A stretch of DNA of 64,000 nt from a virus: the IMG/VR virus record IMGVR_UViG_3300048997_000353, positions 32,001-96,000 of that record. One strand, given 5' to 3'. The notes beneath the pieces were generated by a model, which saw only the letters and a program-made list of their open reading frames with translations, made no database searches and was not told where the DNA came from. Made by a program: the position numbers and the translations under genes. Positions 21,413 to 46,077 of this stretch are shown here, in pieces (position 1 is the first letter of the stretch; every line of letters begins with the position of its first letter).

Positions 21413-23872
21413 TCAAGAAACTTCAGCCTCATCGCTAATGACTAGAGCACACAGGCAATTCACATGCGCTGGATAGGTGGGCACGGATGCGATCGAATAG
21501 GGCGAGCCCGCCTCGAGTTCGTCGCACTCATCATCCAGGTCGTGATTGGAACTCATTTGCCAATCCACGAATTTGACGATTCCTGATTTCCGCCAGGACT
21601 CTAAATTCCCGTTTACTTGCGCGCTCGAGATCTCCGTTCTGGCAATCATGGCGGCGCGCTGGTCGTTGAAGATTCCGGACTTGTCGATCCGCGCTTCGAT
21701 ATCCGCGAGCTTGGGCGTTTTTTCTTCCGCGAACAGTTCCGTCACGATGTCGTGGATTTTTGTTCTGGTGGTTTCACTGATGGCCCACTTCGCATCCGGA
21801 TTGGCAATGAGCTTGCCAGAATTGGTGACTTTCATTCCCACCATTTCGGCGGCGCGCGCCGAAGCCCATTCCTGCGCTGCTTCGTTCATTCCGGAAATCA
21901 TGTCCTCATCGGAAATGTCGAGCTGCAGGATCCCGTTGGACACGCCGGCAATGGCGGCGTCCTGAAAATATTCTTCCGTCTCTTCCGCAATTTTGCGCCA
22001 GTCATCCGCGATCGATCGCAAAATTGCTTTCACTGTATCGTCCGCGGCCGCTTTGTGCAGCGTGGGTTCCATCGTTGCGGCCATGTGTCTATCCGGAAGA
22101 CCGAGAGACTTGGCCAATTGCTTTTTGGTTTTCCGCTTCATGGTCGCAAAGTGATCCTTCACAACTTTTTCCACGGCGTTTTTGGCAATGATGGATTGTG
22201 GCGCCAATCGATCGGGCGTGATTTTGATGCGTGCGCTCTTGCCGAATTTGAGAGAACCGGCGGCTTTGCCTTTGCCTTCTTTGCCTTTACCCGGAGGCGT
22301 CTGCTGTGCGCCAGCGCCGCCCTTCCCAGGTTTCTCCCCTCCTTTGTCACCGCCGGTCTCTTCTTGACCAGGAAGTCCGATTTGTCTGCGCGCTGTACCG
22401 TTTACCGCAGTTGCTTGCTGGTGTCGCTGCAATTCCATCTTGGCCTGCGATTCCAGCGCGGCCTGGCCCAGCAAAACAAATCCAGTACCGGTAATGATGC
22501 CAAGTTGCGAGGCCTCCGGTTCGTTCCGATCGTCCTCACCCAGCCGTTCGCGGCCTTCGTTCGGCGTGATAATTCCGCCGCCCACCAAAATTTTAATCGT
22601 TTCCGCATTTTTTTGCGGATCAGGTTCGGTGAAGGGCTGGAACGCCATCTCATAATCCGGCAGATTGAATTTCTGCTGGATTATGTAATCGATCAAGCCT
22701 TTGATGAAATCGACCCAGGGCAGCGTGCCTTCTTCGACCGATGCTTCCTGCGATTGCTCGGCCGACGCGCGGTTCATCGCGCGGATCAGTCGTTGCGCCG
22801 ACGTGCCAAATCCGAAAGCAATCTTCCGGATATGCATGTCGTCGAATTCGTCCTTGAGCAAGGGCTCTTTGGTGAAAATAATTTGGTCGGGTTTTTCAGC
22901 ATCATTGAAGCCTTGTACCATCCGCCACTGCCGGCGCGCGGCTAGATTGCCCGCCAGTTCCGAATTCATCCAGGTCATCGCTTCCGCGATTTTGTCGGGC
23001 GGCGTGCCCTTGGGCACAACCTGCACAACGCCTGGCGTCGAGCCTTCCGTGTAATAGGCCAAGGTAAAAGCCAGCCGCTGCGCGCCAATTTCAATTTCCG
23101 TTGCGAGCTGCTCGACAGGGGACATTCCGTAGAGTTGGGAAGAAATCGTATTCCGCGGAACGATGTTGCGCGGCTTGTAAATGAGTTGGTCGGTAGTCAG
23201 ATTGACAAGCGGAATGCCCCACCAGTTTTGCGCGTAAGCAGGTTGCGGCGGCATCGGCGTCCAGCCATTCACGTCGATGTACCGCACAATGGAATCGCCG
23301 CGAAGAACGGGCAACTCCACAATTTCTCCCTTGAAGGTTTTGCGAATCAAAATGGCGACGGCATCGAGCACCAGCAGATCGTCCATCAGTGGCCGAAGCC
23401 ATTCCTGCCAGTTGTGTTCCCGGTCCGGGCGTTCGAAGAATTTACTGAGCTTGACGATTTGCGCATCGCCCTCAGCGCGCTTCTTCGCTTCTTTCTTGGT
23501 TTCTCCCGGTTTGCGGCGTAGTTGAACTTCCCAGGGAATTTTCGCGACGGAATCTTTGACATTCTCGATACAGATCCTCGCGAGGGGATACATCGCGAGC
23601 GCCTTGAGCGCCGCCGCCGAATATTCAGCATCCGCGCGCGGCGTATACAGCAAGTTCTGGCCAGCCCAATATTGAAACCCGCGTGGCTCGGTTCCTTCCG
23701 GCGCAATGGGTTTGACAGGTTGAAGGGGAGAATACCAAGTGCCGGCATCGATACCACGGATGGTTTCATCGGGCGGTTGATAGAGCTGACGGCCGTATTG
23801 CTGGAGCGCCTGGACAACAGGGCCAAGGTTGCGGACAGTGATCCCGGAACCGGACCCTGGAGAATTAGCCAT
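21413..23872 (-). CDS. Portal protein fused to a MuF-like head morphogenesis domain
   Basis: Portal motifs (YGMSPVE, ITPNEGRERLG) followed by RAAMIARTE...PAHVNCLC. Confidence 0.88.
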   Translation of the reverse strand: MANSPGSGSGITVRNLGPVVQALQQYGRQLYQPPDETIRGIDAGTWYSPLQPVKPIAPEGTEPRGFQYWAGQNLLYTPRADAEYSAAALKALAMYPLARICIENVKDSVAKIPWEVQLRRKPGETKKEAKKRAEGDAQIVKLSKFFERPDREHNWQEWLRPLMDDLLVLDAVAILIRKTFKGEIVELPVLRGDSIVRYIDVNGWTPMPPQPAYAQNWWGIPLVNLTTDQLIYKPRNIVPRNTISSQLYGMSPVEQLATEIEIGAQRLAFTLAYYTEGSTPGVVQVVPKGTPPDKIAEAMTWMNSELAGNLAARRQWRMVQGFNDAEKPDQIIFTKEPLLKDEFDDMHIRKIAFGFGTSAQRLIRAMNRASAEQSQEASVEEGTLPWVDFIKGLIDYIIQQKFNLPDYEMAFQPFTEPDPQKNAETIKILVGGGIITPNEGRERLGEDDRNEPEASQLGIITGTGFVLLGQAALESQAKMELQRHQQATAVNGTARRQIGLPGQEETGGDKGGEKPGKGGAGAQQTPPGKGKEGKGKAAGSLKFGKSARIKITPDRLAPQSIIAKNAVEKVVKDHFATMKRKTKKQLAKSLGLPDRHMAATMEPTLHKAAADDTVKAILRSIADDWRKIAEETEEYFQDAAIAGVSNGILQLDISDEDMISGMNEAAQEWASARAAEMVGMKVTNSGKLIANPDAKWAISETTRTKIHDIVTELFAEEKTPKLADIEARIDKSGIFNDQRAAMIARTEISSAQVNGNLESWRKSGIVKFVDWQMSSNHDLDDECDELEAGSPYSIASVPTYPAHVNCLCALVISDEAEVS

Positions 23873-24491: not shown

Positions 24492-24800
24492 AGGCAAAAG
24501 CCGTATTTTATTATCGCTTAAAAGTTGGAGCGCCCGCATCGACGATCACACCAGGTTGCGGAAGGGGCGCGTGGTTTTCGTGGTATGGGACAAGGCTTCC
24601 ATCGGCGAGTCTTACGAACTTCTGGTAGCCCTGGCAGGTCTTGAGAACGATTACGTGTGTTTGGTTCATGCGAACCTCCTTGCTGTGATTGTGATTACGA
24701 ATGCGGAGTTTTCTACGATTCGGCGCGCCTGTCCATACCATTAACGCCTGAGTTAGAGAAAATATGGTAGTTTTTCACAGCTTGTCCACAGATTTTATTT

Positions 24801-24875
24801 TGGAGCGCCTGGCGCGATTCGAACGCGCGACCCGCCTCTTTAGAGAAGGCTACTCTACCGCTGAGTTACAGGCGC
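24801..24875 (-). tRNA. tRNA with CUA anticodon (amber suppressor), Gly-like acceptor
   Basis: GCGCCTG TA ACTC AGCGGTA GAGT A GCCTT CTCTAAA GAGGC GGGTC GCGCG TTCGAAT CGCGC CAGGCGC T CCA. Confidence 0.9.
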
Positions 24876-24908
24876 CCGGTGCAAAAACCATGTCAAATCG
24901 CGTGCATA

Positions 24909-25388
24909 TTATTCCAACGATTCGACCAAGCTGGTGCCCGGTCCGCACTCAAGCGCAGTGAGCTGCCGCCCACTACCGGGCAGAGAATTGGTGCGGACGG
25001 TAGGATTTTCACCCACACTTTCAGCTTTAGAGGCCGACGTGCCTGACACCGCGTCCGCAGTGTATTTCCAAAGTCGGTAGTTCTTCAGCGCCGCGCGCTG
25101 TTCCCCCGTGATCGGAGCCGTGGCAATCGCCGTAAATCCAAAGTTATTATCCGGTTCGGTCCAGAGGTAGTGCGGGATGTAGTTGGCTTGCAGCTTCGCC
25201 ACGACGCGGCGCAAAGCGGCCACACCGGGCAGGCCGACGACGATGATATTGGGAACGAGATCTTCGTTGGGGTGCTGGATGGCGGCGAGATGGAAAACTG
25301 CATGATTGGCTTGAACGATTTGGTGAGCGACAGGAATGTCCTGTCTAACGAAAACGTACACTGCATGGTCAGTGGGAATCTATGTCAT
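24909..25388 (-). CDS. PTH2-like peptidyl-tRNA hydrolase with an in-frame TAG at codon 3
   Basis: YVFVRQDI..AHQIVQANHA..WTEPD..TAIATAP is PTH2/PTRHD1-like. ATG ACA TAG at 25388-25380 is in frame with GTG 25361. Confidence 0.75.
24932..24981 (-). ncRNA. 50-nt mini tRNA-like element with acceptor stem and ACCA end
   Basis: GCCCGGT...ACCGGGC-A-CCA encloses the hairpin AGTGGGC-GGCA-GCTCACT and a short second hairpin. Confidence 0.6.
24989..25058 (-). tRNA. Atypical 70-nt CUA tRNA (small D-arm, tRNA-Pyl-like T-loop)
   Basis: GCGGACG CG GTGT CAG GCAC G TCGGC CTCTAAA GCTGA AAGT GTGGG TGAAAAT CCTAC CGTCCGC A CCA. Confidence 0.75.
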
Positions 25389-25395
25389 GGCGAGC

Positions 25396-25424
25396 ATTCT
25401 CTGCGTGAACGATGGTGAAGTCAA
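25396..25424 (-). promoter_or_regulatory. Sigma70-like promoter giving a leaderless transcript
   Basis: TTGACT-17 nt-GAGAAT-7 nt-ATG (25388). Confidence 0.55.
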
Positions 25425-25425
25425 C

Positions 25426-25458
25426 AAAAAAAAGGGCGAGCGTTTCTCGCGCCCGCCC
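25426..25458 (-). terminator. Intrinsic terminator
   Basis: GGGCGGGCG/CGCTCGCCC 9-bp stem followed by T8. Confidence 0.8.
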
Positions 25459-25483
25459 TAAACCAACACCCCATTTTCGAAAG

Positions 25484-26485: not shown

Positions 26486-26533
26486 ACGGTACGCCTTCAC
26501 AAGCAGCGTTTCGTCTCACGACTCTTCAGCCGC
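26486..26533 (-). ncRNA. Hammerhead ribozyme (type I)
   Basis: GCGG CTGAAGA GTC-GTGA-GAC GAA ACGC...GCGT A CCGT: full catalytic core, three stems and a GUA cleavage triplet. Confidence 0.85.
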
Positions 26534-26609: not shown

Positions 26610-26685
26610 TGGTGGACCTGACCGGCTATGATCCGGCTGCCTCCTGATTGCAAAACAGGCGCTCTCCCAATTGAGCTACAGGCCC
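26610..26685 (-). tRNA. tRNA-Ala(UGC)
   Basis: Cloverleaf with G3:U70, anticodon TGC and encoded CCA; non-canonical T-loop ATCATAG. Confidence 0.88.
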
Positions 26686-46001: not shown

Positions 46002-46077
46002 GCTGCCGTAGCTCAATTGGTAGAGCCGACGATCTGTAATCGTCCTGTTTGGGGTTCAAGTCCTCACGGCAGCCCCA
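46002..46077 (+). tRNA. tRNA-Thr(UGU), atypical anticodon loop, opposite strand to its neighbours
   Basis: GCTGCCG...GACGA TCTGTAA TCGTC...TGGGG TTCAAGT CCTCA CGGCAGC C CCA. Confidence 0.8.

What the first reader, a model, noticed from the sequence alone, without database searches (positions are those of the whole stretch)
24801..25458. Amber-gated peptidyl-tRNA-hydrolase module with its own suppressor tRNAs
Seen: terminator, then promoter TTGACT-17-GAGAAT, then 7 nt to ATG ACA TAG ATT CCC..., in frame with a PTH2-like domain. Downstream lie a CUA tRNA-like RNA, a mini-tRNA and a canonical CUA tRNA. The first two are inside the ORF's 3' tail, so excising them would leave a non-stop mRNA. Other genes read normally in code 11. 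Known: two-codon minigenes cause peptidyl-tRNA drop-off that Pth relieves. Inference: a self-contained feedback switch in which hydrolase synthesis requires a charged amber suppressor from the same transcript.
Basis: partly seen in the sequence, partly recalled or inferred. Interest (0 to 1): 0.85.

Follow-up and report, generated by a model that had tools for sequence, protein, structure and literature searches.

The report
Amber-gated phage hydrolase with suppressor tRNAs
A soil phage that uses the normal genetic code puts a UAG stop as the third codon of a small tRNA-hydrolase-like gene and encodes two UAG-reading tRNAs right behind it; 27 of 32 related phages keep this lock-and-key pair, which gives the puzzling suppressor tRNAs of normal-code phages a concrete target.

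Summary
On the minus strand lie, in order:
- a terminator and a sigma-70 promoter;
- ATG-ACA-TAG 7 nt after the -10 box, with no Shine-Dalgarno;
- an ORF with a PTH2 fold;
- a CUA tRNA, a 50-nt CCA-ending mini-tRNA and a second CUA tRNA.

The ORF's stop lies beyond the first two RNAs.

The phage record (108 kb) is otherwise standard code. TAG ends about 19 of 129 roughly called genes, and no other gene opens ATG-NNN-TAG.

- 27 of 32 homologues examined keep an in-frame TAG in the first codons, never TAA or TGA. Four of them are cultured phages (GAP32, Arash, RsoM2USA, ME3).
- 26 of those 27 have a CUA tRNA; none of the 5 TAG-less ones has one in the DNA examined.
- 18 of the 27 have no alternative in-frame start before the invariant Arg, so GTG 25361 is not a conserved start.

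Best reading: full-length enzyme synthesis depends on the phage's own suppressor tRNAs. What the enzyme does, and whether the loop feeds back, is inferred, not shown.

I found no published description. XacN1's authors reported no target for its CUA tRNAs. This scan has already found the same design on other DNA, in at least 25 genomes.

The parts
25433..25459 (-). Intrinsic terminator of the upstream unit: 10-bp GC-rich stem followed by a T-run reaching about 25424
   Evidence: The weak Rfam L20-leader hit is this hairpin.
25396..25424 (-). Sigma-70-type promoter: TTGACT, 17-nt spacer, GAGAAT. The -10 box ends 7 nt before the ATG, which implies a leaderless mRNA.
   Evidence: TTGAC lies 34-39 nt upstream of the ATG in 16 TAG-bearing loci including this window (L022 has it at -41, behind a Shine-Dalgarno). 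The transcription start is inferred, not mapped.
25380..25388 (-). Gate: ATG-ACA-TAG, with no Shine-Dalgarno, in frame with the hydrolase-like ORF. The base after TAG is A.
   Evidence: 22 of 27 TAG-bearing loci read ATG-NNN-TAG; the base after TAG is A in 22 of 27.
25068..25379 (-). Conserved PTH2-fold domain of 104 aa, from the codon after TAG to ...NYRLW
   Evidence: The family has 2338 cluster representatives at E<=1e-3.
25359..25361 (-). GTG, the code-11 start of the 150-aa ORF. It is not conserved as a start codon in relatives and lies inside a small hairpin, CACTG-N6-CAGTG.
24909..25067 (-). ORF tail that is simply tRNA A, a spacer and the mini-tRNA read in frame; stop TAA at 24909-24911
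   Evidence: The shared tail motif 'VGENP' in homologues is the translated T-arm.
24989..25058 (-). tRNA(CUA) A: 70 nt, 3-nt D loop, T loop UGAAAAU, A73, encoded CCA
   Evidence: 41.3 bits. Position-equivalent CUA tRNAs in relatives.
24932..24981 (-). Mini-tRNA: 7-bp acceptor stem, two hairpins (the second with a T-loop-like CUUGAGU), ACCA end
   Evidence: Look-alikes occur in at least 15 related loci with different acceptor sequences; the second hairpin stem covaries.
24801..24875 (-). tRNA(CUA) B: canonical cloverleaf, G1-C72, C2-G71, G3-C70, U73, encoded CCA
   Evidence: 60.5 bits. U73-type second CUA tRNAs in relatives.

Best explanation
This is a phage translational lock-and-key module.

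**How it most likely works**
1. A strong promoter makes a leaderless transcript that opens AUG-ACA-UAG and continues, in frame, into a PTH2-fold hydrolase-like protein. The transcript then runs into two amber-suppressor tRNAs and a mini-tRNA.
2. With host factors alone, RF1 ends translation after two residues.
3. Once the phage's CUA tRNAs are processed and charged, they read the UAG. The UAG sits in a suppression-friendly UAG-A context. It also lies in the unstructured N-terminal tail, where any residue should be tolerated.
4. The full-length enzyme is then made.

The enzyme is therefore produced only when, and in proportion to how far, the phage's suppressor tRNAs are active.

**What the enzyme most likely does**
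It most likely cleans up by-products of suppressor and phage-tRNA activity: dropped-off or stalled peptidyl-tRNA, or N-blocked or aminoacylated tRNA.

**Shown versus inferred**
- Shown: the anatomy, the fold, and the co-conservation of TAG with a CUA tRNA.
- Inferred: decoding of the UAG by these tRNAs, the enzyme's substrate, and the direction of any feedback.
For: **Anatomy:**

**Standard code elsewhere:**

**Conservation of the gate**
- 27 of 32 family members examined have an in-frame TAG within the first 3-10 codons. It is never TAA or TGA, although TGA and TAA are the commoner stops here.
- The ATG and the TAG stay in frame with the ORF even when 3, 5 or 9 codons separate them (L003, L004, L023, GAP32).
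- 18 of 27 loci have no in-frame ATG, GTG or TTG between the TAG and the invariant Arg.

**Pairing with the tRNA**
- A CUA tRNA was found for 26 of 27 TAG-bearing members and for 0 of 5 TAG-less members.
- In TAG-less L008, the position-equivalent tRNA has a shifted loop that reads UCU.
- TAG-less members are scattered in the tree, which needs at least 3 independent changes.

**Start type**
- 18 of the 27 TAG-bearing loci lack a Shine-Dalgarno, 16 of them with a promoter placed for a leaderless start; the other 9 have one.
- TAG-less L008 and L011 show a Shine-Dalgarno before their start.

**Context and placement of the TAG**
- The base after TAG is A in 22 of 27 loci.
- From memory of E. coli context studies (Bossi 1983; Pedersen and Curran 1991), this is the best context for amber suppression.
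- The TAG lies two residues before the first modelled residue, upstream of strand 1.

**Fold:** PTH2, by Foldseek.

**Literature**
- PTH2 genes are known companions of phage tRNA clusters (PMC7824862, PMC5966550).
- No target for the CUA tRNAs of a standard-code jumbo phage could be found (PMC5852040).
Against: - There is no experimental evidence of read-through, charging or enzyme activity.
- In this window a GTG (25361) could start a nearly full-length protein. 9 of 27 loci have some in-frame start close to the TAG.
- The Pfam PTH2 score is below threshold. The catalytic Lys of archaeal Pth2 is not clearly conserved.
- The amino acid inserted at the UAG is unknown. The nearest-neighbour comparison of the tRNAs was uninformative.
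- It is not clear why a phage would need the suppressor at all. TAG-terminated phage genes would be read through as collateral.
- The loci are related to one another, so counts overstate independent events.
Confidence: 0.7

Rival explanations
1. Suppressor homeostat, the same gate used as negative feedback. The PTH2-like enzyme inactivates the suppressor's charged or peptidyl form. In addition, read-through ribosomes run into the tRNA genes, since no stop codon precedes them, and hinder tRNA maturation. Suppression would then be held at a set point, in the manner of RF2 autoregulation at the in-frame UGA of prfB.
For: - The gene product belongs to a tRNA-ester hydrolase fold.
- In the loci of this lineage whose ORF tails were read, and in many database family members, the ORF has no stop before the first tRNA or mini-tRNA.
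- A suppressor is potentially harmful, because TAG is a real stop for about 19 of 129 phage genes.
Against: - In cultured jumbo phages and the SD-led lineage the gene has its own stop and the CUA tRNA lies elsewhere, yet the TAG is kept. The ORF-tRNA overlap therefore cannot be essential to the gate.
- There is no evidence on the enzyme's substrate.
Confidence: 0.2
2. Minigene weapon and antidote. AUG-ACA-UAG, on a strong leaderless transcript, acts like a lambda bar minigene. It traps tRNA-Thr as fMet-Thr-tRNA and damps host translation. The phage supplies spare tRNA-Thr and, after suppression, its own hydrolase.
For: - Codon 2 is Thr in 18 of 27 loci.
- The phage encodes tRNA-Thr(UGU) at 46002-46077.
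- The SD-led relatives carry 2-5 Thr tRNAs whose anticodons include the ones needed for their own ACG, ACC or ACA codon 2.
Against: - L003 and L004 have 5 codons before the TAG, L023 has 9, and GAP32 has 3.
- Arash and RsoM2USA use Leu as codon 2.
- Thr tRNAs may simply reflect codon usage.
- A minigene would not need TAG specifically, nor an in-frame conserved ORF behind it.
Confidence: 0.08
3. Termination-reinitiation that does not involve the tRNAs. The two-codon uORF ends at UAG, and the 70S ribosome restarts at the adjacent AUU, AUC, AUG or GUN codon, or at GTG 25361 in this window.
For: - The codon after TAG is ATN in about 19 of 27 loci and GTN in 4.
- The window has GTG 25361.
Against: - It does not explain the exclusive use of TAG (27 of 27).
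- It does not explain the 26/27 against 0/5 association with CUA tRNAs.
- It does not explain why a gain or loss of the TAG always goes with the presence or absence of a CUA tRNA.
- Ile at that position may reflect protein-level conservation, or the A preference at the base after the stop.
Confidence: 0.05
4. Incipient or partial code change. The TAG is just one recoded sense codon in a phage on its way to code 15, with no regulatory meaning.
For: - Phage suppressor tRNAs and TAG recoding are well known (bioRxiv 10.1101/2021.08.26.457843; PMC9523058).
- A standard-code phage that had acquired a suppressor tRNA is mentioned there as a possible precursor state.
Against: - There is no other in-frame TAG in 108 kb, and TAG remains a normal terminator.
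- The TAG is held at the same start-proximal place across deeply diverged phages of very different hosts. That pattern indicates long-term selection, not a transition.
Confidence: 0.05

Closest known systems
Stop-codon-recoded phages (code 15, TAG read as Gln) and their 'code-change modules' (Borges et al., bioRxiv 10.1101/2021.08.26.457843; Peters et al., PMC9523058)
   Same: - A phage-encoded CUA suppressor tRNA lets in-frame TAGs be translated in a standard-code host.
- A proposed use is as a timing switch.
- The tRNA sits just upstream of late genes; here it lies next to the portal gene.
   Different: - Here a single gene carries one TAG, at codon 3. In one lineage two genes do.
- Coding density under code 11 is normal.
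- TAG still terminates about 15% of genes.
- The gated gene is a translation-maintenance enzyme, not a lysis or structural gene.
Autoregulatory recoding of translation-factor genes: prfB (in-frame UGA, +1 frameshift senses RF2) and infC (AUU start senses IF3). From my own knowledge.
   Same: An early in-frame recoding signal in a translation-related gene makes its synthesis report on the activity of a translation component.
   Different: - The sensed component is a dedicated, co-encoded tRNA, not the gene product itself.
- Whether the product acts back on that tRNA is unknown.
Peptidyl-tRNA hydrolase 2 (PF01981; PDB 2zv3, 1q7s, 1wn2, 3erj, 1xty) and PTH2 genes in phage tRNA clusters (PMC7824862, PMC5966550)
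   Same: - Same fold, at TM 0.73-0.78.
- Shared R-x-D-L and Q..HA motifs near the N-terminus.
- Same genomic company, namely phage tRNA genes.
   Different: - Below the Pfam threshold.
- The catalytic Lys is not evident.
- No published account of the amber codon was found. Database and GenBank gene calls start downstream of it or omit the gene.
Lambda bar minigenes (AUG-AUA-stop). From my own knowledge.
   Same: A two-codon ORF linked functionally to peptidyl-tRNA hydrolase.
   Different: - Here the stop is always UAG.
- It is followed in frame by a conserved ORF.
- It is paired with a cognate suppressor tRNA.
Dedicated stop-codon decoding systems (selenocysteine UGA, pyrrolysine UAG)
   Same: A special tRNA reads an in-frame stop in particular genes of an otherwise standard-code genome.
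   Different: - No PylS was found in the phage record.
- No SECIS- or PYLIS-like requirement is evident.
- The codon lies where residue identity should not matter.

Membership tests
Peptidyl-tRNA hydrolase PTH2 (PF01981) | Sequence match to the Pfam model above its gathering score | tested here: not met
   E 0.016 and 15.8 bits against a cut-off of 23. A profile of the family hits one PDB 'peptidyl-tRNA hydrolase' (24bt_A) at E 0.0047.
Peptidyl-tRNA hydrolase PTH2 (PF01981) | PTH2 alpha/beta fold | tested here: met
   The AlphaFold2 model has pLDDT 86 and pTM 0.80. Ten of the eleven strongest distinct PDB entries found by Foldseek are Pth2 structures or archaeal structural-genomics proteins with that fold (2zv3, 1q7s, 1wn2, 3erj, 1xty, 1rlk) and one (2gax) is a bacterial protein of unknown function, all at probability 1.00; TM normalised by query is 0.72-0.78.
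Peptidyl-tRNA hydrolase PTH2 (PF01981) | Catalytic Lys/Asp pair described for archaeal Pth2 (recalled from memory) | tested here: inconclusive
   Invariant residues are R12, D14, H26 and D77, plus T87 in alignment A2. An Asp is kept in the E-P-D motif. The Lys-rich loop of Pth2 aligns to a gap or to His/Gln. No residue-level structural superposition was available.
Peptidyl-tRNA hydrolase PTH2 (PF01981) | Hydrolysis of peptidyl- or N-acyl-aminoacyl-tRNA | not testable with these tools
   Needs an enzyme assay or complementation of a pth(ts) strain.
Stop-codon-recoded (code 15) phage | Own suppressor tRNA with a CUA anticodon | tested here: met
   Two are present, at 24989-25058 and 24801-24875.
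Stop-codon-recoded (code 15) phage | Many genes interrupted by in-frame TAG; TAG not used as a terminator | tested here: not met
   TAG ends 19 of 129 roughly called genes. There is no convincing TAG-interrupted gene other than this one in 108 kb.
Amber suppressor tRNA | tRNA cloverleaf with a 7-nt anticodon loop: U33, C34-U35-A36, purine 37 | tested here: met
   The loop is CUCUAAA in both. Rfam scores them 60.5 and 41.3 bits against a gathering score of 29. tRNA A has a minimal D loop and an atypical T loop.
Amber suppressor tRNA | Aminoacylation and decoding of UAG in vivo | not testable with these tools
   Supported only indirectly, by co-conservation with the in-frame TAG (26/27 against 0/5).
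Leaderless mRNA | Start codon at the transcription start, with no Shine-Dalgarno | tested here: inconclusive
   The -10 box ends 7 nt before the ATG and there is no Shine-Dalgarno. The same geometry holds in 16 TAG-bearing loci including this window. Neighbouring gene 24511-24670 has AAGGAGG. The transcription start is not mapped.
Autoregulatory recoding (prfB type) | Conserved early in-frame stop in a translation-related gene | tested here: met
   27 of 32 members have it, at codon 3 to 10.
Autoregulatory recoding (prfB type) | The product's own activity changes decoding at that stop | not testable with these tools
   Needs genetics or biochemistry.
bar-type minigene | A free-standing two-codon ORF whose expression is toxic when Pth is limiting | tested here: not met
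   The ORF is not free-standing: a conserved ORF continues in frame. The number of codons before the stop varies among 2, 3, 5 and 9. Toxicity cannot be tested here.

The most novel reading that the evidence does not exclude
The module is a self-tuning translation device, in which one transcript couples three things:
1. A UAG sensor at codon 3 reads the activity of the phage's own suppressor tRNAs.
2. The message has no stop codon before the tRNA genes. Read-through ribosomes therefore collide with tRNA folding and processing, and RNase P cleavage turns the message into a non-stop mRNA.
3. A PTH2-fold enzyme deals with the resulting peptidyl-tRNAs. CCA-ending mini-tRNAs may also act as substrates or decoys.

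If so, suppressor tRNAs in standard-code phages are translational regulators with a small dedicated regulon, not code-changers.
Probability: 0.2. Interest if true: 0.9.

Novelty: new variant of a known kind. Interest (0 to 1): 0.8.

Why it matters
**It names a target for orphan suppressor tRNAs.** Standard-code phages carry suppressor tRNAs whose targets are unknown. The XacN1 authors looked for targets of its two CUA tRNAs and found none (PMC5852040). This module names a conserved target: the phage's own PTH2-like gene.

**It would be a natural orthogonal tRNA/amber-codon gate.** The design resembles what synthetic biologists build by hand. It may also represent a stable state distinct from genome-wide recoding.

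**It corrects annotation.** Current gene calls start this gene downstream of the TAG or omit it, both in cultured phages and in protein databases.

**It can be tested in ordinary laboratory hosts.** The same design occurs in cultured phages: Cronobacter phage GAP32, Salmonella phage Arash, Acinetobacter phage ME3 and Ralstonia phage RsoM2USA.

Tried and rejected
**Readings tested and rejected**
- **Genome-wide TAG recoding.** Rejected. TAG terminates 19 of 129 roughly called genes. The few same-frame ORF pairs split by a TAG are adjacent genes with their own starts.
- **A wider amber regulon in this phage.** Only one ATG-ACN-TAG followed by an ORF exists in 108 kb. In three SD-led relatives a second small gene family does share the ATG-ACN-TAG start. 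Raw motif counts there are no higher than controls.
- **GTG 25361 as the real start.** It is not conserved as a start codon, no Shine-Dalgarno precedes it, and it lies in a small hairpin.
- **Pyrrolysine.** ARAGORN's 'Pyl' label is only its name for a CUA anticodon. No PylS was found in the record.

**Attempts that gave no answer**
- **Amino-acid identity of the tRNAs by nearest non-CUA tRNA.** Uninformative, at 0.65-0.79 identity to assorted tRNAs. tRNA B has a Gly-type acceptor end (G1-C72, C2-G71, G3-C70, U73) but lacks the C35/C36 that GlyRS normally reads. This point is an inference from memory.
- **A 66-sequence alignment for the search for related loci.** Too diverse, so the call failed.
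- **Pattern YTCTAAR for anticodon loops.** Far too unspecific.
- **The look-up of encoding contigs.** As a result I could not check whether database proteins that begin 'MTQI...' carry CAG or a TAG translated as Gln.
- **MAFFT alignment of the mini-tRNAs.** It could not keep the acceptor stems in register. Only the second hairpin's covariation was scored. No covariance model was built.
Full report
**1. What is there**

The window is bases 32001-96000 of a 108,441-bp IMG/VR virus record with 54.5% GC. The finding lies on the minus strand, immediately upstream of the portal/head-morphogenesis gene 21413-23872.

Reading 5' to 3' on that strand:
- An intrinsic terminator, stem 25459-25433 plus a T-run.
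- A promoter: TTGACT (25424-25419), 17 nt, GAGAAT (25401-25396).
- Seven bases later: ATG 25388, ACA, TAG 25382-25380, ATT CCC ACT GAC CAT GCA GTG(25361) TAC GTT TTC GTT AGA CAG GAC....
- No Shine-Dalgarno precedes the ATG, whereas the next gene downstream has AAGGAGG.
- The ORF called under code 11 (24909-25361, 150 aa) continues through a 70-nt tRNA with anticodon CUA at 24989-25058. Rfam scores it 41.3 bits and ARAGORN misses it.
- It also continues through a 50-nt CCA-ending mini-tRNA at 24932-24981, before reaching TAA at 24909-24911.
- A canonical tRNA(CUA) follows at 24801-24875.

**2. The phage is not recoded**

- A rough codon-usage-based gene call over the whole record gives 129 genes. 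They end in TGA (62), TAA (48) and TAG (19).
- The few long frames split by a TAG are adjacent genes with their own starts.
- Only one ATG-ACN-TAG in 108 kb is followed by a long ORF, and it is this one.
- No PylS-like gene is present.

**3. The protein**

- Pfam gives only a sub-threshold PTH2 match, 15.8 bits against a cut-off of 23.
- An AlphaFold2 model built on 15 homologues has pLDDT 86 and pTM 0.80.
- Nearly all its best Foldseek matches are Pth2 structures or archaeal proteins of the same fold (2zv3, 1q7s/Bit1, 1wn2, 3erj, 1xty), at probability 1.00 and TM 0.72-0.78; one of the top eleven entries (2gax) is a bacterial protein of unknown function.
- A family profile hits a PDB peptidyl-tRNA hydrolase at E 0.0047, sharing R-x-D-L and Q..HA motifs.
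- The family is large: 2338 cluster representatives at E<=1e-3.
- Many database members start exactly at 'M(Y)(V)FVRQD'. Many have tails such as 'PVAQ...' or 'VGENP', which are tRNA sequence read in frame. Gene callers therefore skip the TAG and run into tRNAs.

**4.

Two scans of viral contigs gave 26 unique related loci. A tblastn of cultured phages gave 32 records, of which I read five.

The gate:
- Of 32 members in all, 27 have an in-frame TAG within the first 3-10 codons.
- 22 of these read ATG-NNN-TAG, mostly ATG-AC[ACGT]-TAG.
- L003 and L004 have ATG plus four further codons and then TAG. GAP32 has ATG-GCA-CAA-TAG. L023 has ATG plus eight further codons and then TAG.
- The stop is always TAG.
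- The base after the stop is A in 22 loci, G in 4 and C in 1.

Alternative starts:
- In 18 of the 27 loci there is no in-frame ATG, GTG or TTG between the TAG and the invariant Arg of strand 1. Any alternative start there would delete conserved core residues.
- The window's GTG 25361 is GTA, GTT or GTC in relatives.

Start type:
- 16 TAG-bearing loci, including the window, have TTGAC 34-39 nt before the ATG, which is leaderless geometry.
- TAG-less L008 and L011 show a Shine-Dalgarno before an ordinary start.

**5. Lock and key**

- A CUA tRNA was found for 26 of the 27 TAG-bearing members. It usually lies directly behind or overlapping the ORF tail, and often there are two.
- In three SD-led phages the CUA tRNA lies 2.8-4 kb downstream, in arrays with Thr, Ile and Gln tRNAs.
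- In GAP32, Arash, RsoM2USA and ME3 it lies elsewhere in the tRNA region.
- L023 is a fragment and remains unresolved.
- None of the five TAG-less members (L008, L011, L012, L034, RaK2) has a CUA tRNA in the DNA examined.
- L008 keeps a homologue of the first tRNA, but its loop has shifted so that it reads UCU.
- In a maximum-likelihood tree the TAG-less rows are scattered, needing at least three changes forced by supported branches. They sit on long branches.
- The loci are relatives, so the 26/27 against 0/5 split is not a probability. The repeated joint change is still what co-adaptation predicts.

**6. Further anatomy**

Two tRNA lineages recur:
- The first usually has G73 or A73. In this window it is miniaturised.
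- The second usually has U73 with G1-C72, C2-G71 and G3-C70.
- Some second tRNAs have 8-nt anticodon loops (L009, L010) or a ~30-nt extra arm (L004, L014, L019, L022, L026).

The mini-tRNA is a real family:
- It is 45-54 nt long, with a 7-9-bp acceptor stem whose sequence differs between loci.
- It has two hairpins. The second has a loop YUUNARU and a covarying 3-bp stem (GC/CG/AU at each pair), followed by an NCCA end.
- It was seen in at least 15 related loci.
- Its function is unknown.

**7. Mechanism**

Shown:
- The anatomy.
- The fold.
- Standard code elsewhere in the phage.
- Co-conservation of the TAG with a CUA tRNA.

Inferred:
1. The transcript is leaderless.
2. RF1 terminates after Met-Thr unless the phage CUA tRNAs decode the UAG.
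3. The TAG sits in the N-terminal tail before strand 1, where residue identity should not matter. It is in a UAG-A context, which favours suppression in E. coli (from memory).
4. Enzyme synthesis is thereby licensed by suppressor activity.

Further points:
- PTH2 genes accompany phage tRNA clusters in general (PMC7824862, PMC5966550), and RaK2 has an ungated copy without a CUA tRNA. The enzyme probably services phage tRNA use broadly, with the gate added where a suppressor exists.
- Whether the loop is a licence, a negative-feedback homeostat or a timer cannot be decided here.
- The overlap of ORF and tRNAs, with no stop before the tRNA, is conserved in this soil lineage but absent in the cultured jumbo phages. 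It is therefore an add-on rather than the essence of the gate.

**8. Known or new**

- Phage suppressor tRNAs and TAG recoding are known, but as genome-scale code changes (bioRxiv 10.1101/2021.08.26.457843; PMC9523058).
- I found no paper describing a start-proximal amber codon in a PTH2-like gene paired with a CUA tRNA.
- The XacN1 paper states that no targets of its two CUA tRNAs could be identified, although that phage also encodes a peptidyl-tRNA hydrolase.
- GenBank annotations of the cultured members truncate or omit the gene.
- Earlier notes of this scan report the same design in at least 25 other genomes. I used their mention of cultured jumbo phages as a lead and verified it independently.

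**9. Verdict**

The core of the interpretation, suppressor-dependent synthesis, is well supported by comparison. The feedback and non-stop claims remain hypotheses.

I class this as a new variant of a known kind, suppressor-tRNA-based recoding reduced to a single-gene gate. It is readily testable in cultured phages.

Noticed in passing
window 24932-24981 (-); also L003:4366-4417, L004:4393-4444, L007:4384-4435, L014:1876-1928, L020:1894-1946, L021:1996-2048, L026:1885-1937 and others: A recurrent family of ~50-nt CCA-ending mini-tRNAs sits between or before the suppressor tRNAs. Each has an acceptor stem and two hairpins but no anticodon loop. The acceptor stems differ in sequence between loci, the second hairpin covaries, and the discriminator base varies. 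Function is unknown; possible roles are a processing signal, a decoy or a substrate.
   Followed up: partly
L035 (G003:8560-9400), L038 (G001:3430-4270), L041 (G002:39170-40010): In three SD-led relatives, a second small gene family also opens ATG-AC[AG]-TAG. It is ~50 aa, with the motif 'EN..RLAEAV...C..C'. This suggests a small amber-gated regulon in that lineage.
   Followed up: partly
L004:4449-4554, L014:1940-2038, L019:2027-2126, L022:2360-2466, L026:2002-2099; L009:4438-4511, L010:4504-4578: Some second-position CUA tRNAs carry a ~30-nt extra arm that folds into a hairpin with its own anticodon-like 7-nt loop. Others have 8-nt anticodon loops, for which ARAGORN reports 4-base anticodons such as tcta.
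   Followed up: no
window 46002-46077 (+); tRNA arrays in L046-L074: The phage encodes tRNA-Thr(UGU), which reads the ACA at codon 2 of the gate. The SD-led relatives carry 2-5 Thr tRNAs whose anticodons include those matching their own ACG, ACC or ACA codon 2. This could be coincidence of codon usage.
   Followed up: partly
window 26500-26529 (-), downstream of tRNA-Ala(UGC) 26610-26685: A sub-threshold Rfam hit to the type I hammerhead ribozyme, 17.4 bits against a gathering score of 34. An earlier first-reader note of this scan also flags a hammerhead here.
   Followed up: no
L014:2211-2317: A sub-threshold Rfam match to YrlA (Y RNA-like), 41.6 bits against a gathering score of 69. It lies just downstream of the suppressor tRNAs in a related phage, in a stretch with several tRNA-like repeats.
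   Followed up: no
L075 (GAP32), L076 (Arash), L077 (RsoM2USA), L079 (ME3): GenBank annotations of cultured jumbo phages truncate this gene (GAP32_397, Arash gp84c), start it just downstream of the TAG (ME3_195) or leave it unannotated (RsoM2USA), because of the start-proximal TAG.
   Followed up: yes
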